Virus record (IMG/VR): IMGVR_UViG_2615840717_000004
Span: 39,604-103,603 of that record
Source: a virus
Taxonomy: Duplodnaviria; Caudoviricetes
Direction: 5' to 3' (one strand)
Length of the DNA: 64,000 nt
Shown here: positions 35,169 to 55,432 of the stretch, piece after piece
Position numbering within the stretch: the stretch's first letter is position 1
Layout: each line of letters opens with the position of its first letter
Translations under genes and position numbers: made by a program
The notes under the pieces: model-generated
Told to the model about the DNA's origin: nothing
Database searches by the model: none
What the model saw: only the letters and a program-made list of their open reading frames with translations

Positions 35169-35408
35169 CTAAGCTCTCACACGGGCAGCAAAGCGCCTAC
35201 GCTTAAGCTTGCCCTTTTGGATTTCACACTGTGCTCTGGCGTAATCGCGGTCCTTCTCAATCCGGTTGAGATCAGCGTTACGATATTTGATGAAATCCTC
35301 ACCAAAGCGGCTTTCTGTGACCTGTTCACCATCGCGAACAGTCTCATAAATTGTCTGAAGCTTCTCGACTTCAGCGCACCAGTCTTTGCCCATACAAAGA
35401 CCTTTCAT
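35169..35408 (-). CDS. gpW-like head completion protein
   Basis: G.Q....FGED.IKY..ADL. Confidence 0.6.
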   Translation of the reverse strand: MKGLCMGKDWCAEVEKLQTIYETVRDGEQVTESRFGEDFIKYRNADLNRIEKDRDYARAQCEIQKGKLKRRRFAARVRA

Positions 35409-35464
35409 GTTTTGATCTGAAGGAATCGTGTTACCTCTTTGCTCGGTTGCAAAGGAGCGTACTC

Positions 35465-36331
35465 ATGTCTGAAGTTACTGGAGTAGAAAGCAAAAGAAGT
35501 TTCTTGCTCAACTCATCAACTGCTTTGATGGTTTTCGTAGGTGTTTTTATCGCAATTGTTCTTCTATGGGTTGCAAACGCTTACTTTGCTTTGACCGGCG
35601 AGTTACCCTTTGATCTCTTTAATGTTTCAATGACTGAACCAAACTTCGGGGCAACTGAGCAAGTTTCTGTTGCGCAGAGCGAGCGTGGCCCAGTGGGAGA
35701 TAGTTTTGGTATCATCAACTCCCTCTTCTCCGGTATGGCATTCGTAGGTCTGGTCTACGCAATTTTGTTGCAACGGCAAGAACTGCATCTAGTAAAAGAA
35801 GAACGAGATGACACTCGCTCAATATTGCGACATCAACAGGCTAATCTTGACGAGCAAAATAAAGTTACGAAGAAGCAGGCTTTCGAGACTACGTTTTTCA
35901 ATCTACTAAGTTTAGTTTCAACTAGTCGCGCTGGGATTATGATGCCCGGTAAGTTTGAAGTCAGTGGAGAGCGGGCTCTAAGCAATTATGCTGCGAATGC
36001 AGAAAGAACTTATAGTAAGCAAGGTGCTAAAAGTGCTCTGGCTGATTACAGGAACTCTGATCCCTATAAAATTACTACCACTCACATAAACCTTTTTGTA
36101 AGCGCTGCACTGCTGTTGGAAGAGTACAATTTGGATGAGCAAGGTATTTACATCAACATACTCTGCGACTCCATCTCTCCGTCTGAGCAGATACTTTTAG
36201 CATTTGAAGCTTACTCACCGGGACGGGACATGATGGCCTCGATCATTGCAGACCATGGATTATTGAACGAAGCTAAAAGTGTAACTCTTGAAAGACTTTT
36301 GCGTGAATTTGAGGCTGTTAGGTTTCCTTAA
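35465..36331 (+). CDS. Reversed moron: 2-TM protein resembling putative phage abortive-infection family
   Basis: GDSFGIINSLFSG.AF.GL...ILLQ...FETTFFNLL; AAGGAG RBS. Confidence 0.7.
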   Translation: MSEVTGVESKRSFLLNSSTALMVFVGVFIAIVLLWVANAYFALTGELPFDLFNVSMTEPNFGATEQVSVAQSERGPVGDSFGIINSLFSGMAFVGLVYAILLQRQELHLVKEERDDTRSILRHQQANLDEQNKVTKKQAFETTFFNLLSLVSTSRAGIMMPGKFEVSGERALSNYAANAERTYSKQGAKSALADYRNSDPYKITTTHINLFVSAALLLEEYNLDEQGIYINILCDSISPSEQILLAFEAYSPGRDMMASIIADHGLLNEAKSVTLERLLREFEAVRFP

Positions 36332-45148: not shown

Positions 45149-45973
45149 ATGATCAAGTTCAAAGAAAAAACACTCACGGTACAATTAGCTCTACTGGTAC
45201 CGAACTTACTGTTCGTCACTATTATATTAATATGTGCGGTTATCTTGTTCGGTCTACTTTGGAGCGGCTTAACTAGCGCATTTCAAACCTTTTCCGAAAT
45301 AGATTGGGACTTAGCAACACTCTCTGATATCGGTACGGCGGCGATGCCAGTTGTAACTATTGGTGGCTTTATATTAATCAGGCGACAGATCGGGAAAGCA
45401 GATGAAGCTAACCAAATTGCTCTTCTTCCTGTAGTCAGAGAAGCCCACTCGCTTGTTTTAGATGAGCAGCGACACATCCATAGTTTGACCCAAGTATCTT
45501 CACTCCTTCAAGCTGTTCACATTGCAAATGATCTAAGCAACGGCATAGGGCCCAAGGGTGACCCTCAGACAAACTTCAATGCACAGGGAGCAATTCTGGC
45601 GTTCCAGAGCTTAGAAGCGAAAGTACATGATTACCTATCTCCCGAAGTTTCTAAACAACGTGTAGAAATCACTCTTGTAATCAACTACATCCAGAAAGAA
45701 GTTAAGCTTCTTGAACCCATCTCAAACGAAACTCAAGAGGCACTAAGAAAACGATACGACCACAAAAATGACGAGTTAAAAAGTATCTATGACGTCAAGT
45801 ATACGATGATGGATTATCAGCAAAACAGCACTGCAAGCGTATCACAAAACCAACTAAAATTCGGAGATAAACTAAACGCTTATAGTGCGTCACTTGCAAG
45901 GGAAAGTGACGTTCTAGCGAAGAGGTTGACGTCTCTACAGAAGCTGATCAAAGCAAATAAAACTCTGCTGTGA
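45149..45973 (+). CDS. Reversed moron: 2-TM, helical protein
   Basis: Two TM helices, ILIRRQIGKADEAN; AT-rich. Confidence 0.75.
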   Translation: MIKFKEKTLTVQLALLVPNLLFVTIILICAVILFGLLWSGLTSAFQTFSEIDWDLATLSDIGTAAMPVVTIGGFILIRRQIGKADEANQIALLPVVREAHSLVLDEQRHIHSLTQVSSLLQAVHIANDLSNGIGPKGDPQTNFNAQGAILAFQSLEAKVHDYLSPEVSKQRVEITLVINYIQKEVKLLEPISNETQEALRKRYDHKNDELKSIYDVKYTMMDYQQNSTASVSQNQLKFGDKLNAYSASLARESDVLAKRLTSLQKLIKANKTLL

Positions 45974-45984
45974 TCTCAATATCA

Positions 45985-46518
45985 TCAAGCCGCAAGTTGT
46001 CTCATCTTATCTGAATAGATACCCGATTTAGGGCGAAACTGCACGGATAAATCTTTATCAGCAAACGCGGGTAAATCTCTTTTATTACAAACATTTACCG
46101 AAATTTGATGAAGTGCTCTCTCAAAACGGTCATGAGCCGTTTGTTTTGCAAGCCCCATCTTGTCCAGAACCTTCTTTGGCTGGATCTTGTAGGCGTAGCA
46201 AAACACCAGAAGCGAGAGCGCTTTTCTCTCTTCGTTTCGCTTGATGTGACGCATCCAGTCCCATGTCTCTTCCATGCGGGCAATTGCTGCAGCATCTGGC
46301 CCAGTCATGTTCCTGGCTCTCTTTTCCGCTTCAGTAAGCTTCTTTGCAACGGCATTCAAAGCCGCTTCCCATTGATCATCATCGCACGGGCTGAAGTCCG
46401 GCCAGAAGCTTTGGGGCTGCCCCGGTCTGACCCCTCTCACTCTCATAAGACGCATGACAACCTGTGCCTCGATCAGCCTGTCCAATATCACGGCATAGAG
46501 TGCTTGAATGTCGCTCAC
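45985..46518 (-). CDS. Putative late regulator (Q-position, C-terminal HTH)
   Basis: P.AAAIARMEE.WDW motif plus HTH; last gene of early operon. Confidence 0.55.
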   Translation of the reverse strand: MSDIQALYAVILDRLIEAQVVMRLMRVRGVRPGQPQSFWPDFSPCDDDQWEAALNAVAKKLTEAEKRARNMTGPDAAAIARMEETWDWMRHIKRNEERKALSLLVFCYAYKIQPKKVLDKMGLAKQTAHDRFERALHQISVNVCNKRDLPAFADKDLSVQFRPKSGIYSDKMRQLAA

Positions 46519-46937
46519 TTCGTGATCCTTTCCAGATAATCAAGGAGTGCATGACCTGCTGGCAGTAGGAGGTATCCAGTGCCTTTGACTTCGATTAGCC
46601 CCAGCTCAACCAACTTGTCTGGTTCCACCAGCGCCTTGTTGTATTTCATTATCTTCTTTCTTCGCAGATCCATTAGGAACGCAATTTGACCAAGATGAAT
46701 AGGCGCAGAGTTTTCAGGAGGTACTGGCGTTCCATAAGGCTCAAGCCCTGCTTCAATTGCGGTGCAAGCAAGGGCGATATGCTTTGGTATTTCTACCGCT
46801 CGTGACGGGTCGTCCCGCCTGTGCCCCAACTCGTATAGCCTAATCGTCTCAGAGGATACCCCAAGAGCTGCAGCAGCGGCATCACGAGATTTGAAGCCAC
46901 TTGCAGTCCGCCAATACTTGAATTCTTCAGGTGTCAT
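46515..46937 (-). CDS. XRE HTH protein
   Basis: MTPEEFKYWR...AAAALGVS..TIRLYE.G...IP..IALAC. Confidence 0.8.
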   Translation of the reverse strand: MTPEEFKYWRTASGFKSRDAAAAALGVSSETIRLYELGHRRDDPSRAVEIPKHIALACTAIEAGLEPYGTPVPPENSAPIHLGQIAFLMDLRRKKIMKYNKALVEPDKLVELGLIEVKGTGYLLLPAGHALLDYLERITK

Positions 46938-47273: not shown

Positions 47274-47462
47274 TCATGCCGCTTTCTTTTCCTGCTTGTT
47301 GGCCCGGCTGCGTAAAGCCTCATAGTTCAATGGGGAAACATGGAGCACCCGATTGAAAAGCGCACAGACCCGATCTATGACCTCTGCTCTGTCGCCTGTC
47401 TCATTATCTTCCACCACTGTTCCAACCTCCACTTTCTGCACAAAGCGAATTGGGACGCTCAT
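47274..47462 (-). CDS. Small hypothetical phage protein
   Basis: ATGA-coupled to helicase. Confidence 0.55.
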   Translation of the reverse strand: MSVPIRFVQKVEVGTVVEDNETGDRAEVIDRVCALFNRVLHVSPLNYEALRSRANKQEKKAA

Positions 47463-48820
47463 AAGAGCATCCCGTCTTGGTGTCCTCTGTCTTCCCTGAA
47501 GGTCGTAGTGGGCCCATCAAAAACCAGCTCGGCACAACGACCGCCTGAGCCCATGCGAACTTTGTCAGCGTGCACCTGTGCCCGGTTCTTCCAATCAAGC
47601 ATGTCTGTTTGCCATTTGACATGAAGATCCGTGCCTTCTTTAGGCTCTTTCCGCAGCAGTATTGGCTCAGGGCGGAAGAGAATGAGGATGTTGTCTGCGC
47701 TGTCTTCCATGTTGGAACCGCCAAACAACTCTTTGCGCGTCAGGCGTTGCAGTGGCTCTCGCTCAGACCTGACTTCATGGGCAAGGGCAACGACTGGAAT
47801 ATTGAGGGCTTTGGCAAGCTCCTTCAACTCAGAAATTACGTAGCCGCAGCGTGCAGGAAGGTTTGAGTCTAAACGGCTATCTTTAGCCCGCATGGCCTTT
47901 ACGCTATCGACAAACAGCGCTCTCGTACCAAACCTAGACTTGTTAGCTTTTGCCCGGATAAACAGCTGCTCAACAGTCGTTCTTGAAGTCTCATCAATAT
48001 AAAGCGGGATGCTTTGGCAATCCTCTTTAGCAAGGTAGATTTTTTCCAGTTCATCAGCCGAAAGCCCGCCCCGGCGCATAGCATGGGTACTAATGCCAGA
48101 CATAGCCGCAACGCGCCGCATGGTGAGCTGTTCTGCATCCATTTCCTTTGACTGAAAATCAACTGGGCCATACTGGCAGGCAATAAACTCGGCAATCTGC
48201 AAAGCAAGAGCTGTCTTACCGCTTGCCCCCTCTGCACCGATTACAGTTAGCTCTCCATCAACCAAGCCGCCGCCCAAAAGGTTATCAACCTGCTTTAGAC
48301 CTGTCCCCAAGGCATCACCCCCTGTTTCCTGAGGCTGCGCAGCTCTCTCATAAACAGCTTGTGCGCTTTGCCCAAGGGTTACAGAACTCGCTCGCTGCGC
48401 TTGGCCTGAAATCTCTTGAAGCTCTTCAATAGCGTTCTCTGCAAGCTCAGCAGCCCTTGTGTCAGTGTAAAGAGCCTTCTGTCCCTTCTGGAAAGTCTCA
48501 GCAATCAGCTCCTTGTTCCGCCGATTGAGGAGCGGCTTCACAAGATCCTCGATTTCAGCAGTAAGCTTCTTCCCCTTGGCTGCAAGCGATTTGATGCGCG
48601 CCACTAGATCTGCATCGCCTTCATAAGGGGCGTTTGTCTCTACCAAATGCAGATCGAAGCTGCCTTCCTTGTGACAGGTGTCCAACCCGGTCCAGACAGC
48701 CTTCCAGATTGCATCATGGAAGTGCTCACGGGTCATCTGGTCAGCGACATCCCAATACAGCTCTGGAGAGGCTAAAAGGCGCGCTAAAACCTGTTGTTCG
48801 ATTGGTTCAAGGTTTGTCAT
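47459..48820 (-). CDS. DnaB-like replicative helicase
   Basis: GASGKT Walker A, SKEM, LKELAKALNIPVVAL, EDSAD. Confidence 0.9.
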   Translation of the reverse strand: MTNLEPIEQQVLARLLASPELYWDVADQMTREHFHDAIWKAVWTGLDTCHKEGSFDLHLVETNAPYEGDADLVARIKSLAAKGKKLTAEIEDLVKPLLNRRNKELIAETFQKGQKALYTDTRAAELAENAIEELQEISGQAQRASSVTLGQSAQAVYERAAQPQETGGDALGTGLKQVDNLLGGGLVDGELTVIGAEGASGKTALALQIAEFIACQYGPVDFQSKEMDAEQLTMRRVAAMSGISTHAMRRGGLSADELEKIYLAKEDCQSIPLYIDETSRTTVEQLFIRAKANKSRFGTRALFVDSVKAMRAKDSRLDSNLPARCGYVISELKELAKALNIPVVALAHEVRSEREPLQRLTRKELFGGSNMEDSADNILILFRPEPILLRKEPKEGTDLHVKWQTDMLDWKNRAQVHADKVRMGSGGRCAELVFDGPTTTFREDRGHQDGMLL

Positions 48821-49692
48821 GCAAATGCACCTCGGCTTATGTTATCAAAAGGATTCGTGTGAAATTTTAGTGAGTGTTTATGCTGTCGTTTATTCCCACC
48901 CGGTATCGGGTTCTTGTTGCCTGGGTCGGCATTATTTTGCTTGGGAGCCTCGGCGGTTTTGTTATTGCGGTAATTTACGATCTCAACCTCTCGCAAGGAC
49001 GATTGTGCGACGGGTTTGCACTTCAAACACCATGGGCGTGCAGTCGGACATGGATCAGTGCTTTGAGTGGATGGGTCGCAGCAATTGCTGCAATTGGCGC
49101 TGCTATTTATGCTGGTTCGCTTGTTAAGATTCAGATTGATCGCACTGAGGAGCAAATTGACAAAACGATCGAAGCCAATGCGATTGCTAAGCTTGAGTAC
49201 ACAACAGGTTGCTACGCGCAAATGCTGACAGAAGAGAAATGCACGAATGAGCTTCACAACTTTGCGGCTGAAAAGAACAGAATTGAGCGCAGCGATAAAC
49301 TCCATGACACCAAACCTGCCGAGACCCTTCTGGCGCTTGGAAAAAGCGTGATGTACAAGTTTGAAACTCAAGAACAGATAAATGACGCTGTACTTCCAAT
49401 TAGACTTATACAACTCAGGATAATTCTTCTTAATGAAGTCAAGGCTTTGATTGACTTTTGGGCAAATCACGGCGCGCAAACTAAAACGGTGCGTGCCGCT
49501 GACGACACGTACTACTCCATAGACCAACACGGCTGGGAAGACGCGAAAGCATGGGAAAAGCACAGGCCTGAGTATATTGATCAGATTGAGAGATGCGTGG
49601 ATGCTCATTCGGAGTTCATTAATCAGATCATTCAGCTTAAAGCTCTGTTCGAAGGTATCCAGGAAACAGCACTGAAAAAGTGATTGTTTCAT
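48817..49692 (-). CDS. Antisense shadow ORF bridging primase to helicase
   Basis: ATGA overlap at both ends; in register with 48874..49683. Confidence 0.65.
   Translation of the reverse strand: MKQSLFQCCFLDTFEQSFKLNDLINELRMSIHASLNLINILRPVLFPCFRVFPAVLVYGVVRVVSGTHRFSLRAVICPKVNQSLDFIKKNYPELYKSNWKYSVIYLFLSFKLVHHAFSKRQKGLGRFGVMEFIAALNSVLFSRKVVKLIRAFLFCQHLRVATCCVLKLSNRIGFDRFVNLLLSAINLNLNKRTSINSSANCSNCCDPSTQSTDPCPTARPWCLKCKPVAQSSLREVEIVNYRNNKTAEAPKQNNADPGNKNPIPGGNKRQHKHSLKFHTNPFDNISRGAFA
48874..49683 (+). CDS. Reversed moron: 2-TM, helical protein
   Basis: Two TM helices, VKIQIDRT...EANAIA. Confidence 0.75.
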   Translation: MFMLSFIPTRYRVLVAWVGIILLGSLGGFVIAVIYDLNLSQGRLCDGFALQTPWACSRTWISALSGWVAAIAAIGAAIYAGSLVKIQIDRTEEQIDKTIEANAIAKLEYTTGCYAQMLTEEKCTNELHNFAAEKNRIERSDKLHDTKPAETLLALGKSVMYKFETQEQINDAVLPIRLIQLRIILLNEVKALIDFWANHGAQTKTVRAADDTYYSIDQHGWEDAKAWEKHRPEYIDQIERCVDAHSEFINQIIQLKALFEGIQETALKK

Positions 49693-50732
49693 ACAGTCGC
49701 TCCATAAAGATCATTGTATACGTCCAGCCAGTCAGAGCCCGCCTCAGGCAATGCGATGTCCAGCACTTCCAATCCGGTTTCCTGAAGGTTCTGAGCTGCT
49801 CTCTTTGCAGCCTTCTCGCCCGGTGCCATCTCCCATGATCCGTCGGGCTTCTGATAAGCCTGATCGCCGTCGCCATAGATCCGCAGCCGGTCTATATCCA
49901 AGGGAGGTTCAAAGTTGATGAGGCCCGCCGTAGACAAGCAGGACCAGCAAGGACGCCCCGTCAGGGCGTAAACCGCAAGGGCTGTCTCAACGCCTTCAGC
50001 TATGCCGACTTCCCCGTCAGTAGCTTCCTGAAGTCGCACTGCGCCCCCTGCAACCGGACCAAGGCCGAGCTTGGCGTTGGCTACCGGCGCTTTCTTTCCG
50101 TCCTTAGTGATGAAAATTCGCCAGATCCCGGTGAGATCGCCCATGGTGTCATCAACACGGCAAACAAGAGCGGGAAGCTTTCCTGCGTCCGGATACTTCA
50201 ATCCCGGGTGGAAACGCAGGCAGTCTGGCCACTGCATTCTTGGGAGCCTGCGCCCCAGCAAGTAAGCTTCTGCAGGAGTACCCTCAATCGGCTTGGCTTG
50301 ATCCCAAAGCTTTTGTGCGTATTCGGTGCTATCGGCTTCCTGTTGGGCTTGCTCTTCAGATTCGCGCTCTGCCTTTGCAGCTGAGGCTTTCTTCCGTTCT
50401 GCGGCTTTGCGCTTTGCCTCTTCATCCCAAGTGCCTTCACCGGAGGGAGGTTCTTCACCAGTCAGAATCTCGCATGCTGCTTTGAAGTCAACGGACATGC
50501 AATGCATCACCACACCGATGGCATCACCTCCACCGCCAGCCCCTCTACAGTTCCACTTCTGCTTGACTGGATTCACGCTAAAGCGATCTGTGCCGCCGCA
50601 TGCCGGACAAGGGCCTACATGCTCCTTCCCGCTTCGTCTAAGCGTCGCATTAGAGGATTTAGCCGCTTCAAGTAAAGATACATCCAGTGCGCGTTGCTTA
50701 TAGTCTTTCCATTGTTGGTCGAGAAGGTTCAT
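49689..50732 (-). CDS. Primase (zinc-finger plus Toprim)
   Basis: GPCPACGGTDRF...CRG, AEGVETAL, GDGD, DWLD. Confidence 0.88.
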   Translation of the reverse strand: MNLLDQQWKDYKQRALDVSLLEAAKSSNATLRRSGKEHVGPCPACGGTDRFSVNPVKQKWNCRGAGGGGDAIGVVMHCMSVDFKAACEILTGEEPPSGEGTWDEEAKRKAAERKKASAAKAERESEEQAQQEADSTEYAQKLWDQAKPIEGTPAEAYLLGRRLPRMQWPDCLRFHPGLKYPDAGKLPALVCRVDDTMGDLTGIWRIFITKDGKKAPVANAKLGLGPVAGGAVRLQEATDGEVGIAEGVETALAVYALTGRPCWSCLSTAGLINFEPPLDIDRLRIYGDGDQAYQKPDGSWEMAPGEKAAKRAAQNLQETGLEVLDIALPEAGSDWLDVYNDLYGATV

Positions 50733-51505
50733 GCTGACCTCTCGCAAAAATGGGAAGACAGAATCAGTCCATGGTCACTAAAAGAAGTCGGTGTTTTCTC
50801 AGTAATTTTGGAATTAGTATTGTAATGCGAAATAGAGATCTGGTCTTGTGTGCAGCAGCTTGCTTTACGGGGGCTTTTATTGGAGCGCTCTGCATTATTG
50901 TCGTGACTGGCGACTTTTATGATGGACCACCTAAGGTTGGGGAAACGAGGGAAGCTCTGATACGCGGTTGGATAGCTGTTGCAATAAATGGAATAGCCGC
51001 ACTCGTTGTAGGAGTTGGTTTGTTGTTTACAGCGCGACAAACACGAAGCGCCAAACTGCAGGCGTTCCAAATGAACCTTCAGGTCATAAACGATGAAATC
51101 AATACTCTTATGATGCTGCGCCCTATCCTTCTTAACATCGGCGTTGCCACCGAAGTTATAAGTAACGCAGCCAACACAGCAAACGCTGCGCAATACTATG
51201 AAGATATAAAAGAGATCAATTTGGACATCTTTAAAACGACTTACAAAATCGGCGACACCGAGAGCAGAACAACAATTGGGGAGATATTTGACGGCATTGG
51301 GGCAATCCAAAGAGGGATAAGGGCAGAGTACCCTCTTGAGACAATACAGTGTTCTGCAAGTAAGGTGTTTCCTCTTGCTAATAAGTATTATGACAATCAT
51401 ATTAGTCGACTGCTTCCAAAACTTGAAGAAAGACAGAGCGACTTGAGAGATCTTATTATTAAGGAGACTAAGCGACTTAGTCGGCACTAGATCTTGCATC
51501 ATCAC
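50729..51505 (-). CDS. Antisense shadow ORF bridging gcrA-like gene to primase
   Basis: GTGA overlap at start, ATGA overlap at end; in register with 50750..51490. Confidence 0.65.
   Translation of the reverse strand: MMMQDLVPTKSLSLLNNKISQVALSFFKFWKQSTNMIVIILISKRKHLTCRTLYCLKRVLCPYPSLDCPNAVKYLPNCCSALGVADFVSRFKDVQIDLFYIFIVLRSVCCVGCVTYNFGGNADVKKDRAQHHKSIDFIVYDLKVHLERLQFGASCLSRCKQQTNSYNECGYSIYCNSYPTAYQSFPRFPNLRWSIIKVASHDNNAERSNKSPRKASCCTQDQISISHYNTNSKITEKTPTSFSDHGLILSSHFCERSA
50750..51490 (+). CDS. Reversed moron: 2-TM, helical protein (true start probably near 50825)
   Basis: Two TM helices, LLFTARQTRSAK. Confidence 0.75.
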   Translation: MGRQNQSMVTKRSRCFLSNFGISIVMRNRDLVLCAAACFTGAFIGALCIIVVTGDFYDGPPKVGETREALIRGWIAVAINGIAALVVGVGLLFTARQTRSAKLQAFQMNLQVINDEINTLMMLRPILLNIGVATEVISNAANTANAAQYYEDIKEINLDIFKTTYKIGDTESRTTIGEIFDGIGAIQRGIRAEYPLETIQCSASKVFPLANKYYDNHISRLLPKLEERQSDLRDLIIKETKRLSRH

Positions 51506-51942
51506 GCTACCTCCTCCTTTTGCTCATAAAGGAAGGTCTGGCAGTGCTCACAGTAGGTCTGGCGAAGATCTACTGGAGCACCACAGTAAAAGCGCTCTTT
51601 AATGGGTGGCTCACCTACCCACATAGGGCGTTTGCATTGCCTGTCTGTGATCTGGAACAGGTTCACAGGGTTTGCATCAGGAGCTTGCAGGCGGGCTTCA
51701 AGGCTATGCTGGAAGCGATTGCCACCCTTACGCCACTGGACAGAGCGCGAAACCCCTCTCTGCCCTGAGAACTCGCCCCCATTGCGCCTGACTACACCAA
51801 AGACAGCCCCCAATGTTAAGCCGGGATTAAAGGGCAAAAGCAGCTCCTGAATAGCTCTTGCTGTTCGGGTTCCATCAGCAAGGAACTTCACTGCCTCTGG
51901 TTGGGAGAGCTGGGAAATATCAATCTTTTTTCTGGCAATCAT
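51502..51942 (-). CDS. GcrA-like protein
   Basis: GAVFGVVRR; C-terminal CKRP...YCGAP...YCEH. Confidence 0.75.
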   Translation of the reverse strand: MIARKKIDISQLSQPEAVKFLADGTRTARAIQELLLPFNPGLTLGAVFGVVRRNGGEFSGQRGVSRSVQWRKGGNRFQHSLEARLQAPDANPVNLFQITDRQCKRPMWVGEPPIKERFYCGAPVDLRQTYCEHCQTFLYEQKEEVA

Positions 51943-52403
51943 AAGAACACACCTTGTTCTTGAGGTTCCATGACCGGCATAAGCAGCACTTGCAGATAGC
52001 CGGTTATCAAAATTCGGGTTTTCGGGGGCGCCCCATCAATACCGGGACCGCTCCAAGCAAGGCGCTGCAACTCATCAAGGTCGAGCAAGTCCAGCGCGTT
52101 CAGGAAGTCACCCAGCCTTCTTTCCCAAGCCGGGTAATTGGAGAACAGGTCGCTTACCGCGCCTATCAGTGAGCTTTTGAGTTCGATAGGTGGGTTTTCC
52201 ATCTCGGAAAGCGCGTATAGGACTGCCCACGCATGCTCCCTGCCCCTCAGATTGATCATCTTCTGGATCCGCACTGCGGAATGCGTCTGTTGAGGTGAGC
52301 AAGGCCCAGTTCTGATCCGCTTGCTGGCGTGCAGAACCTCTATTCCCAGTTCCGCGCACAGGCTTTCCGCTTCCCTTGTGTCGGTTGTCGTTACCGCAGG
52401 CAC
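51939..52403 (-). CDS. Hypothetical phage protein
   Basis: GAGG RBS; coupled in operon. Confidence 0.6.
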   Translation of the reverse strand: MPAVTTTDTREAESLCAELGIEVLHASKRIRTGPCSPQQTHSAVRIQKMINLRGREHAWAVLYALSEMENPPIELKSSLIGAVSDLFSNYPAWERRLGDFLNALDLLDLDELQRLAWSGPGIDGAPPKTRILITGYLQVLLMPVMEPQEQGVFL

Positions 52404-54480: not shown

Positions 54481-54675
54481 CTAGGCCGCAAGCGGTACTT
54501 GGCATTGAGCCTTTAAGAGGTAGAGGAGCCGCTTTGAGGGCTCTGGAATCTCTTGACCTTGCTCGAAACGATTAACTGTAGGCTGTTTGACGCCGAGAAA
54601 ATCGGCGAGATCAGATTGCGACCAACCCAACTCCGTCCGCAGCTCTTTCACTGACTGATTATCCATGGGTTCCAT
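54481..54675 (-). CDS. cro: Cro-like repressor
   Basis: VKELRTELGWSQSDLADFLGVKQPTVNRFEQG. Confidence 0.85.
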   Translation of the reverse strand: MEPMDNQSVKELRTELGWSQSDLADFLGVKQPTVNRFEQGQEIPEPSKRLLYLLKAQCQVPLAA

Positions 54676-54696
54676 CCTCTATCGTGATGGAGATAA

Positions 54697-54736
54697 AATA
54701 CAAAACGGATTTATCAGTGTCAATACCAAATGTATT
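54697..54736. promoter_or_regulatory. OR operators and PR
   Basis: AATACAAAACGGATT (54697-54711) and AATACCAAATGTATT (54722-54736); TTGACA on minus strand at 54723-54718. Confidence 0.8.
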
Positions 54737-54760
54737 TTATTAGAGGGCATATTGTATGCC

Positions 54761-55432
54761 ATGACACAAGCATTCAAAGACCGACTCAAGACAGCCAGAG
54801 AAAAGGCAGGCTTTGCCAGTGCAGCTGATGCAGCTGACGCTCTTGGTATCAAAATACCTACATACACCCATCACGAAAATGGCACACGGAAACCTAAGAC
54901 AGATGCAATCGAAAGGTATGCTCGCTTTTTTGGAGTCGCAGCTACCTGGTTGATGTTTGGGAAGAATGAAACACCTGCAGAAGTTGAACCAGCAAGTAAC
55001 CCCATAAGGAAGCGACAGGTGGCGAAACTTCTCAGCCCCTTCACGGTTCCGGTCTATGGCTCCATTTCAGGTGGTGATGAAGATTATCTAGAAGCTACCA
55101 GCGAGGCGCTGGATCACATAGCTGCCCCAAACTCGCTAATGGATGTGGAAGGTGCATTCGCGCTTTACATGCCGGGTACAGCGATGGAGCCGCGCTACCA
55201 TGAAGGCGAGACGCTTTTTGTAAACCCGAAAAAGCTACCTCGCCCAGGTGAGTATGCCGCCATCATGCACTCCGATCAAACACCTACAGGCTCTCCAATC
55301 TGGCAGGTAGGGCGCTATGAGCGCGTGGATGCGGGCAACCGTGTATTTTCAAGGTATAACGGACAAGAACTTCGCATTCCAACAGACAAGATCCGTGCAA
55401 TACACAAGATTGTCGCTACAGGAGAATGGTGA
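54761..55432 (+). CDS. cI: CI-like repressor (XRE plus S24-like domain, catalytic dyad apparently lost)
   Basis: N-terminal HTH; GTAMEP where GDSMEP is usual. Confidence 0.85.
   Translation: MTQAFKDRLKTAREKAGFASAADAADALGIKIPTYTHHENGTRKPKTDAIERYARFFGVAATWLMFGKNETPAEVEPASNPIRKRQVAKLLSPFTVPVYGSISGGDEDYLEATSEALDHIAAPNSLMDVEGAFALYMPGTAMEPRYHEGETLFVNPKKLPRPGEYAAIMHSDQTPTGSPIWQVGRYERVDAGNRVFSRYNGQELRIPTDKIRAIHKIVATGEW

What the first reader, a model, noticed from the sequence alone, without database searches (positions are those of the whole stretch)
48817..49692. Primase-to-helicase translational bridge across a reversed moron
The primase TGA (49691-49689) overlaps the shadow ATG (49692). The shadow TGA (48819-48817) overlaps the helicase ATG (48820), preceded by GAGGTG. 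All 291 codons are open opposite the 2-TM cargo 48874-49683. An insert between two replication genes is where polarity would cost most.
Basis: partly seen in the sequence, partly recalled or inferred. Interest (0 to 1): 0.85.

Follow-up and report, generated by a model that had tools for sequence, protein, structure and literature searches.

The report
Stop-free bridge ORF over backward phage gene
In a Pseudovibrio prophage, a real membrane-protein gene sits backwards between the primase and helicase genes, and evolution keeps the operon strand free of stop codons across it, most likely so that ribosomes can follow the polymerase through to the helicase gene.

Summary
A 291-codon minus-strand ORF (48817-49692) starts in the primase stop (ATGA) and ends in the helicase start (ATGA, behind GAGGTG). 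It lies codon for codon opposite a real plus-strand 2-TM gene (48880-49683).

This is not chance. The cargo has 27 Leu and 11 Ser but no TTA, CTA or TCA. P is about 1e-5 with the codon usage of neighbouring low-GC cargo and 0.02 with genome usage. A second case lies 1 kb upstream, and three more lie in a neighbouring element.

The same design recurs in about 30 related loci from several genera of the order, including this same primase-helicase junction. Four family members that are not tightly embedded in an opposite-strand operon use these codons freely. Substitutions fall on cargo third positions, so the bridge peptide is not conserved; only its openness is.

Best reading: a translated ribosome conduit that prevents Rho polarity and couples helicase translation. 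This mechanism is inferred, not shown.

The closest principle in print is the ambigrammatic narnaviruses. I found no description for phages. Earlier notes of this scan report the same design in Achromobacter, Stenotrophomonas and Janthinobacterium-type prophages.

The parts
49689..50732 (-). Phage primase gene (ATG 50732; stop TGA 49691-49689)
   Evidence: Pfam Zn_ribbon_DnaG, DUF7146 and Toprim_3. 70-90% identical in related prophages.
49700..49703 (-). GGAG Shine-Dalgarno-like element, 7 nt before the bridge ATG
   Evidence: Sequence
49689..49692 (-). ATGA overlap: primase stop / bridge ORF start
   Evidence: In close relatives the same junction is coupled by different letters: TAAgTTGATG in L066 and TAATG in L067.
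48817..49692 (-). Bridge ORF A: 291 codons, codon-aligned antisense to the cargo; the peptide looks unnatural and is not conserved
   Evidence: No Pfam above threshold (only a sub-threshold Mpv17_PMP22 match, 18.3 vs 27 bits), no PHROG, no PADLOC. Codon LLR favours the opposite strand by 27 nats. RNA C/G ratio 1.20 against a genome sense median of 0.93.
48880..49683 (+). Cargo gene A: 2-TM N-terminus with the motif C.R.WI.ALSGW.AA, plus a variable helical C-terminal domain (alternative GTG start at 48874)
   Evidence: Homologues at 40% identity in Pseudovibrio. The family has 416 cluster representatives. AF2 pLDDT 82. 27 Leu and 11 Ser with no TTA/CTA/TCA. GC 0.467 against 0.52-0.56 in the flanks.
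48814..48843 (+). Promoter-like site (TTGTCA, 18 nt, TATGTT) just upstream of the cargo start, overlapping the helicase start region
   Evidence: It is a consensus match only; the number of matches in the region is not above the shuffled expectation.
48828..48833 (-). GAGGTG Shine-Dalgarno element for the helicase, inside the 3' end of the bridge ORF
48817..48820 (-). ATGA overlap: bridge ORF stop / helicase start
   Evidence: The same kind of ending (cATGA behind an SD-like run) occurs in 17-18 of 20 IMG/VR loci.
47459..48820 (-). DnaB-type replicative helicase gene
   Evidence: Pfam DnaB_C and DnaB. 96-98% identical in L066 and L067.
50729..51505 (-). Bridge ORF B: 258 codons, GTGATGATG start overlapping the stop of the GcrA-like gene behind AAGGAGGAGG, TGA overlapping primase ATG 50732
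50750..51490 (+). Cargo gene B: a different 2-TM protein with no TTA/CTA/TCA in 23 Leu and 12 Ser
51502..51942 (-). Upstream early gene (weak GcrA-like match)
54665..55432 (+). CI/LexA-like repressor (HTH + peptidase S24), same orientation as the cargo and divergent from the minus-strand early operon
2306..3400 (-). Bridge ORF of the neighbouring element (364 codons), over the TM-pentapeptide cargo 2420-3391
3..2308 (-). Part of a 1083-codon bridge ORF over three in-frame plus-strand cargo genes (84-1346 pentapeptide protein, 1347-1775, 1854-2303); it runs past the window start

Best explanation
Cargo gene A is a lysogeny-type accessory gene. It encodes a 2-TM membrane protein, probably for exclusion or abortive infection, and sits backwards in the early replication operon of a temperate Pseudovibrio prophage. 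On induction the operon must be transcribed through it to reach the helicase gene, and that stretch of RNA is antisense, C-rich and otherwise untranslated.

Selection has removed from the cargo every TTA, CTA and TCA codon. These are the only sense codons that read as stops in the codon-aligned reverse frame, and all three have synonyms, so the cargo protein pays nothing. Selection has also kept the spacers in frame and placed an SD plus start on the primase stop and a stop on the helicase start.

Ribosomes that finish the primase can therefore re-initiate, translate 291 meaningless codons close behind RNA polymerase, and terminate on the helicase ATG, where they re-initiate again. This would keep Rho (present in the host) and R-loop formation off the transcript and would couple helicase translation to the operon.

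Shown here: selection for openness, coupled junctions, dependence on context, and the absence of constraint on the peptide. Inferred: actual translation, the role of Rho, and the benefit for helicase expression.
For: - Codon specificity. Eight bridged cargo genes here (2188 codons) have TTA 0, CTA 0 and TCA 0, but ATA 37, GTA 21, CCA 22, ACA 42 and GCA 62. Six unbridged low-GC plus-strand genes nearby (1846 codons) have 21, 36 and 26. P for A alone is 9e-6; for all eight it is 1e-42.
- Junctions. All ten bridge junctions in this contig are ATGA, GTGA or TGATG overlaps behind GGAGG-like elements, like ordinary gene junctions.
- Same hotspot in relatives. L066 and L067 have helicase at 98/96% and primase at 90/87% identity, yet their cargo is only 41-49% identical. 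The bridge is still open (292 and 263 codons) and is coupled by different junction letters. G058 and G094 (another genus) have family cargo plus a 248/249-codon bridge with overlaps at both ends. G067, G023 and G064 have forward cargo that carries 2-14 antisense stops.
- Breadth. 20 of 20 IMG/VR loci, 8 of 9 GTDB loci and 9 of 12 loci from the order-wide search are bridged. Some loci recur in more than one set.
- Context dependence. Family members that are not tightly embedded (L060, L061, L062, L093) carry 17, 13, 14 and 7 such codons.
- The cargo strand is the coding strand. Pfam Pentapeptide hits on sister cargo at 1e-21, codon LLR, and AF2 pLDDT 82.
- The peptide is not conserved. L078 versus L082 differ at cargo codon positions 1, 2 and 3 by 28, 19 and 89; cargo identity is 83% and bridge identity 60%, the same relation as for ordinary genes.
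- Unrelated cargo families are bridged: the 2-TM family, TM-pentapeptide proteins, cargo B, small multi-TM proteins and a 1-TM gene.
- The host encodes Rho. No sigma-70-like promoter was found on the minus strand between 47300 and 52200. A CI-like repressor points the same way as the cargo.
Against: - There are no expression data, so translation of the bridge, Rho dependence and any effect on the helicase are untested.
- The same prophage has a tightly embedded backward gene in its late region (35351-36331, 326 aa, GC 0.43) with 16 antisense stops. Bridging is therefore not obligatory for every backward gene.
- Only four unbridged family members are available as contrast. Their contexts were judged with a crude ORF caller, and L061 is ambiguous.
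- The C/G excess of the bridge RNA is modest: 1.20, inside the upper tail of sense mRNAs.
- The related loci are kin, so the counts overstate independence.
Confidence: 0.62

Rival explanations
1. Ribosome cover for another reason. The frame is kept open so that ribosomes coat the antisense RNA, protecting it from RNases or from pairing with cargo mRNA (dsRNA, RNase III), or so that strong read-through shuts off the cargo during the phage's own lytic cycle. Rho polarity would not be the selected problem.
For: The sequence signature is the same as for the best explanation. In ambigrammatic narnaviruses, protection of RNA by ribosomes is the favoured idea (PMC8316113). The cargo promoter-like site faces the operon.
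Against: It does not by itself explain why both ends are exact stop/start overlaps with the neighbouring genes in nearly all loci. It also does not explain why members with a long gap before the next gene are unbridged.
Confidence: 0.15
2. True dual coding. The 291-aa product is itself a functional protein, for instance a regulator or an antidote of the membrane cargo, so both strands encode selected proteins.
For: There is an SD, a start codon and a long ORF. Translated long antisense genes have been reported in Pseudomonas (bioRxiv 10.1101/2021.02.09.430400, title and abstract seen). Two bridges of the neighbouring element end in SSNDN...AA-like tails resembling the host tmRNA tag ANDNYAMDNAVAA.
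Against: Bridge-frame identity is 15-18% where cargo identity is 25-32%, and 60% where cargo identity is 83%, with 89 of 136 differences at bridge first positions. No family matches. The sequence is Cys-rich and unnatural. Bridges span one, two or three unrelated cargo genes. Bridge A itself ends ...RGAFA, with no tag-like tail.
Confidence: 0.08
3. An ordinary shadow ORF. Codon bias of this genome makes long codon-aligned antisense frames common, and this one merely happens to reach both neighbours.
For: There are 725 codon-aligned antisense ORF pairs of 600 nt or more in the genome. 3% of genes of 230-310 codons have no antisense stop. P is 0.02 under genome-wide usage.
Against: The cargo is low-GC, and such genes carry 9-11 antisense stops. 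All six low-GC exceptions in the genome belong to this system. ATA, GTA and NCA codons are used normally. The spacers are in frame and the junctions are coupled. The design recurs in about 30 loci with diverged cargo. Unbridged family members use the codons.
Confidence: 0.02
4. The minus-strand ORF is the only real gene and the plus-strand '2-TM gene' is the artefact.
For: On the minus strand the ORF chain looks like a perfect operon.
Against: Codon LLR favours the plus strand by 27 nats. Substitutions concentrate on plus-strand third positions. Two canonical TM helices and a conserved motif are present across the 13 aligned members, and the family counts 416 cluster representatives. AF2 pLDDT is 82. 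Sister cargo genes hit Pfam Pentapeptide at 1e-21.
Confidence: 0.02

Closest known systems
Ambigrammatic narnaviruses (reverse ORF over the RdRp gene; DeRisi et al. 2019, PMC6884476; Retallack et al. 2021, PMC8316113)
   Same: A reverse frame that is codon-aligned with a conserved gene is kept free of stops. Only in this register can all stops be removed by synonymous changes (avoiding CUA, UUA, UCA). The reverse product has no homologues, and translation itself, not the protein, is proposed to matter (abstracts read).
   Different: Those are about 3-kb RNA viruses of eukaryotes, with one ORF over the whole genome. Here the host is a dsDNA temperate phage of an alphaproteobacterium. The open frame covers only the backward cargo and its spacers. 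It is joined by SD plus stop/start overlaps to the flanking operon genes, and the proposed benefit is operon continuity (Rho, coupling).
[quoted passage not shown]
   Same: Statistically significant avoidance of antisense stops without negative selection on the antisense translation. The authors speculate that translation has a role other than encoding a protein.
   Different: That is a genome-wide statistic with no context. It does not propose a link to backward genes inside operons, junction coupling or phage cargo.
Antisense overlapping genes (OLGs) of E. coli O157 and P. aeruginosa ('shadow ORFs illuminated', bioRxiv 10.1101/2021.02.09.430400; pop, laoB)
   Same: Long ORFs embedded antisense to annotated genes, reported to be translated (abstracts only).
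   Different: Those are claimed to be protein-coding and under purifying selection. Here the peptide is unconstrained, and the ORF runs exactly from one neighbour's stop to the next neighbour's start.
Translational coupling in operons, and cis-acting translated leader ORFs that keep Rho off a transcript (textbook knowledge; Rho review PMC12360218, listed but not read)
   Same: Stop/start overlaps with an SD inside the upstream ORF, and translation as protection against Rho-dependent polarity.
   Different: Known examples are real genes or short leaders. None is a frame of hundreds of codons laid over a gene on the other strand.
Phage morons and defence hotspots (from my own knowledge: Hendrix-type morons, P2/P4 hotspots)
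   Same: Accessory genes of deviant composition sit between conserved phage genes, with cassette turnover at a fixed junction. Here the neighbours are 96-98% identical and the cargo 41-49%.
   Different: Classical morons carry their own promoter and terminator, and read-through is provided by antitermination. Here there is no room for a terminator (5 nt to the primase stop), and the operon strand is recoded to stay translatable.

Membership tests
Ambigrammatic (codon-aligned, stop-free reverse frame) coding | The reverse ORF is in the codon-aligned register with the forward gene | tested here: met
   Codon boundaries coincide. 725 of 765 long antisense pairs in this genome are in this register, and all bridges are.
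Ambigrammatic (codon-aligned, stop-free reverse frame) coding | [quoted passage not shown] | tested here: met
Ambigrammatic (codon-aligned, stop-free reverse frame) coding | The reverse ORF is translated and required | not testable with these tools
   Needs ribosome profiling, mass spectrometry and mutants. SD and start signals are present.
Antisense overlapping protein-coding genes (OLGs) | Purifying selection on the antisense protein sequence | tested here: not met
   Bridge-frame identity is no higher than expected from the cargo constraint alone, and differences concentrate on bridge first positions.
Translationally coupled operon gene | Stop/start overlap with the upstream and downstream ORFs, with an SD at 5-10 nt | tested here: met
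   ATGA at 49692-49689 with GGAG; ATGA at 48820-48817 with GAGGTG. Conserved in relatives.
Moron (autonomous accessory transcription unit in a phage) | Lies between genes that are adjacent or differently filled in relatives, and has deviant composition | tested here: met
   G049 has only a 73-aa gene there; G067 and G023 have forward cargo. GC is 0.467 against 0.52-0.56.
Moron (autonomous accessory transcription unit in a phage) | Own promoter and own terminator | tested here: inconclusive
   A promoter-like site lies at 48814-48843. There is no terminator-like site after 49683, and only 5 nt separate it from the primase stop.
2-TM abortive-infection effectors (retron Ec48 effector PF28197, AbiC PF16872, DUF4760) | A match to the family HMM | tested here: not met
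   No Pfam, PADLOC or PHROG hit for P0002 or for 28 relatives. There are only weak language-model leads at 0.80-0.84, and Foldseek against PDB gave nothing.
Rho-antagonising cis-translated ORF | Downstream expression depends on translation of the ORF and on Rho | not testable with these tools
   The host has rho, and the bridge RNA has C/G 1.20. There are no functional data.

The most novel reading that the evidence does not exclude
Temperate phages of Proteobacteria may follow a general design rule. Lysogeny-expressed defence or exclusion genes can be embedded backwards inside early lytic operons if they are synonymously recoded (no TTA, CTA or TCA, spacers in frame), so that the operon strand stays one unbroken relay of translated frames. 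These bridge ORFs, hundreds to more than a thousand codons long, would be a class of ORF selected purely as ribosome conduits. They would be a bacterial and phage counterpart of ambigrammatic narnavirus genomes, and a sequence-only marker of operon structure and of lysogeny cargo.
Probability: 0.6. Interest if true: 0.9.

Novelty: new variant of a known kind. Interest (0 to 1): 0.85.

Why it matters
If this reading is right, it shows a cheap evolutionary solution to a real conflict. A prophage can carry host-benefit genes in the orientation of its repressor, in the middle of essential lytic operons, without breaking transcription-translation coupling.

It has four consequences:
- It gives long 'meaningless' antisense ORFs a concrete, testable function, which is an open question in the antisense-ORF literature.
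- It warns annotators that either strand may be called wrongly at such loci.
- It offers a purely sequence-based signature (loss of three codons plus coupled junctions) for finding lysogeny cargo and operon boundaries.
- It extends the ambigrammatic principle from eukaryotic RNA viruses to bacteriophages.

The cargo family itself, with a conserved 2-TM anchor and a hypervariable C-terminal domain, is an unnamed candidate exclusion or defence family with hundreds of members.

Tried and rejected
IMG/VR locus L066 served instead.
- tblastn of the cargo against the INPHARED phage collection gave no match.
- A class-wide HMM search of 400 genomes gave no members outside the order.
A smaller alignment, A5, worked.
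- Pfam, PHROGs and PADLOC gave nothing for the cargo; the bridge has only a sub-threshold Pfam match (Mpv17_PMP22, 18.3 vs 27 bits). Foldseek against PDB returned only generic helical bundles. Rfam found nothing in the window.
- Cargo A and cargo B are not detectably homologous.
- Degron idea from earlier notes: bridges 1 and 3 of the neighbouring element do end in SSNDN...AA-like tails resembling the host tmRNA tag. Bridge A ends ...RGAFA and bridge B ...CERSA, so I do not claim a degron for this finding.
- I first leaned towards 'categorically new' and withdrew that after reading the narnavirus papers.
- I considered the minus ORF as the real gene, and chance, and rejected both (see the rival explanations).
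- Seven full-text literature searches found no description of bridge ORFs over backward phage genes.
Full report
**1. What is there**

The window is contig C39:69175-133174 of a 5.85-Mb, 51.2% GC genome. The tmRNA tag (ANDNYAMDNAVAA, matched by ARAGORN to Pseudovibrio sp. JE062) and the nearest protein homologues place it in Pseudovibrio.

On the minus strand lies a primase (49689-50732; Zn-ribbon, DUF7146, Toprim) and a DnaB-type helicase (47459-48820). Both belong to an early operon that diverges from a CI/LexA-like repressor gene (54665-55432, plus strand).

Between primase and helicase, the plus strand carries ORF 48874/48880-49683. The minus strand carries a 291-codon ORF, 48817-49692. 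Its ATG overlaps the primase TGA (ATGA, with GGAG 7 nt upstream). Its TGA overlaps the helicase ATG (ATGA, behind GAGGTG).

**2. Which strand codes**

The evidence points to the plus strand.
- The plus-strand product has two TM helices and a helical C-terminal domain.
- It has full-length homologues at 40% identity in other Pseudovibrio.
- It belongs to an unnamed family with 416 cluster representatives that share the motif C.REWIGALSGWAAA.AA.
- It folds with mean pLDDT 82.
- A codon log-likelihood trained on unambiguous genes of this genome favours the plus strand by 27 nats.
- Between two relatives with 83% identical cargo (L078 and L082), differences fall on cargo codon positions 1, 2 and 3 as 28, 19 and 89.

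The minus-strand translation is Cys-rich. It has no family match above threshold; Pfam gives only a sub-threshold hit to Mpv17_PMP22 (18.3 bits against a cut-off of 27). It is no more conserved than the antisense frame of any ordinary gene.

**3. Is the open frame more than chance?**

The two frames are codon-aligned, so the only cargo codons that would close the minus frame are TTA, CTA and TCA. Long shadow ORFs in this register are common in this genome: there are 725 pairs of 600 nt or more, and 3% of genes of 230-310 codons have no such codon. Length alone therefore proves nothing.

Cargo A, however, is low-GC (0.467). Low-GC genes of this size carry 9-11 such codons. With the usage of six neighbouring low-GC plus-strand genes, P(none in 27 Leu + 11 Ser) is 9e-6; with genome usage it is 0.02.

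The decisive control is codon-specific. Eight plus-strand cargo genes of this contig (2188 codons) have TTA 0, CTA 0 and TCA 0, but ATA 37, GTA 21, CCA 22, ACA 42 and GCA 62. The control genes (1846 codons) have 21, 36 and 26.

Genome-wide, only six of 261 low-GC genes of 200 codons or more lack these codons, and all six are these cargo genes. Of 96 tightly embedded single backward genes, only A and its neighbour B have none.

**4. It is one link of a system**

One kilobase upstream, cargo B (50750-51490, another 2-TM protein with no detectable similarity to A) is covered by a 258-codon frame. That frame starts at GTGATGATG on the stop of the GcrA-like gene, behind AAGGAGGAGG, and ends on the primase ATG.

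A second mobile element at the window start has three further bridges of 364, 1083 and 575 codons. They run over TM-pentapeptide proteins (Pfam 1e-21 and 3e-13), small multi-TM proteins and a tandem pair of 2-TM family genes. Tandem cargo genes that share a bridge are in the same frame; where the frame changes, a TGATG restart joins two bridges.

All ten junctions are ATGA, GTGA or TGATG overlaps behind GGAGG-like elements, indistinguishable from ordinary gene junctions.

**5. Relatives**

*The same junction.* IMG/VR prophages L066 and L067 have helicase at 98% and 96% and primase at 90% and 87% identity to this prophage. Their cargo at the junction is only 41-49% identical. Homology runs from the helicase into the cargo's N-terminal TM region and breaks at the 3' end of the primase gene, so the variable part is the cargo's C-terminal domain. 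Both keep the bridge (292 and 263 codons), but the upstream coupling is written differently: TAA-g-TTGATG and TAATG instead of ATGA.

G058 (same genus) and G094 (another genus) carry family cargo with 248- and 249-codon bridges that overlap neighbours at both ends. G064 and G092 have bridges of 553 and 443 codons in front of the primase. G067, G023 and G064 carry forward-oriented cargo at the primase-helicase junction, with 2-14 antisense stops, and G049 has only a 73-aa gene there.

*The neighbouring element.* In G009 (named Pseudovibrio sp. Alg231-02), the backbone is 85-91% identical and the cargo 25-32%. The bridge translation is 15-18% identical, yet frames of 724, 909 and 403 codons stay open.

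*The family at large.* 20 of 20 IMG/VR loci, 8 of 9 species-representative loci and 9 of 12 loci from an order-wide search have the frame open over the cargo. Most end in cATGA behind a purine-rich run. The named records are Pseudovibrio, Labrenzia/Roseibium, Cohaesibacter, Hoeflea, Rhizobium and Kaistia. Some loci occur in more than one set, so the total is about 30 distinct loci.

*The contrast.* The four unbridged members (L060, L061, L062, L093) carry 17, 13, 14 and 7 of the 'forbidden' codons. None is tightly chained. L060 has a 575-nt gap before the next gene and L093 a 287-nt gap. L061 sits in a co-oriented block. L062 sits at a convergent operon end.

Codon avoidance therefore goes with context, not with the protein family. 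It also occurs over unrelated cargo families.

**6. Mechanism**

*Shown:* selection on openness, frame and coupled ends; no selection on the peptide.

*Inferred:* after induction, ribosomes leaving the primase re-initiate at 49692, translate the antisense RNA behind the polymerase, and terminate on the helicase ATG. This would keep Rho off an RNA that is otherwise untranslated and relatively C-rich. The host has rho, and the bridge RNA has C/G 1.20 against a median of 0.93 for sense mRNAs.

The aligned register is the only one in which stops can be removed by synonymous changes alone. This is established for narnaviruses (PMC6884476), and it explains why every bridge uses that register.

The cargo points the same way as the repressor and has a promoter-like site at 48814-48843. 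This fits expression in lysogeny and shut-off by read-through after induction. No sigma-70-like promoter was found on the minus strand in 47300-52200 (a consensus scan only).

*Counter-evidence:* a tightly embedded backward gene in the late region (35351-36331) has 16 antisense stops, so bridging is not universal. Late operons may rely on antitermination or internal promoters; I did not test this.

**7. Known or new**

Seven full-text searches found generic reports of antisense ORFs with stop avoidance (bioRxiv 10.1101/724807) and of translated antisense genes. None describes frames that bridge backward genes in phage operons.

Earlier notes of this scan pointed me to ambigrammatic narnaviruses, and I read both abstracts. 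They describe a codon-aligned reverse ORF, conserved absence of stops, and translation itself as the likely function. That is the closest principle in print. The host, the genome type, the local extent, the junction coupling and the proposed benefit all differ, so I rate this a new variant of a known kind.

The scan's notes also report the same design in Achromobacter, Stenotrophomonas and Janthinobacterium-type prophages. I did not re-test those.

**8. Cargo function**

The function is unknown. Pfam, PADLOC, PHROGs and Foldseek/PDB give nothing. A protein language-model search gives weak leads (0.80-0.84) to the retron Ec48 effector, AbiC and DUF4760, all 2-TM proteins.

A role in exclusion or abortive infection is suggested by three features: the conserved membrane anchor, the hypervariable C-terminal domain between near-identical flanks, and the repressor-like orientation. 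This is inference only.

**9. Verdict**

The mechanism awaits the mutant, Rho-inhibition and ribosome-profiling tests listed under next steps.

Noticed in passing
window 35351-36331 (+): A 326-aa low-GC (0.43) backward gene is tightly embedded in the late or structural region, overlapping both minus-strand neighbours. It has 16 antisense stops and no bridge, so it is an internal counter-example. No Pfam hit.
   Followed up: partly
window 45149-45973 (+): A backward low-GC gene (274 aa, no Pfam) with 22 antisense stops lies next to a 335-nt intergenic gap. It looks like an operon boundary rather than an embedded cargo.
   Followed up: partly
window 2306-2342 and G000:C39:65750-65830: Bridge ORFs 1 and 3 of the neighbouring element end in ...SSNDNWRAAA and ...SSNDND...CAA. 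Both resemble the host tmRNA tag ANDNYAMDNAVAA and could be a built-in degron. Bridges A and B lack such tails.
   Followed up: partly
window 84-1346 and 2420-3391 (+); L052:6928-8085: Membrane-anchored pentapeptide-repeat proteins are a second recurrent bridged cargo family, 25-32% identical between Pseudovibrio species at the same position.
   Followed up: partly
L047:4370-5062 (-): In G064 the cargo in front of the primase is a 1-TM protein with a Cys/His motif (CNCPARTACKH). It lies under a 553-codon bridge that also crosses two small doubtful ORFs.
   Followed up: no
whole genome (G000): There are 725 codon-aligned antisense ORF pairs of 600 nt or more in a 51% GC genome, and 82 ordinary genes of 200 codons or more have no antisense stop. 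I did not examine whether any of these are selected.
   Followed up: no
window 47452-47473 (-): A terminator-like hairpin (9 pairs, then a T-rich tail) lies directly after the helicase stop, followed by about 520 nt before the next sizeable minus-strand gene (46515-46937). It may mark the end of this transcription unit.
   Followed up: no
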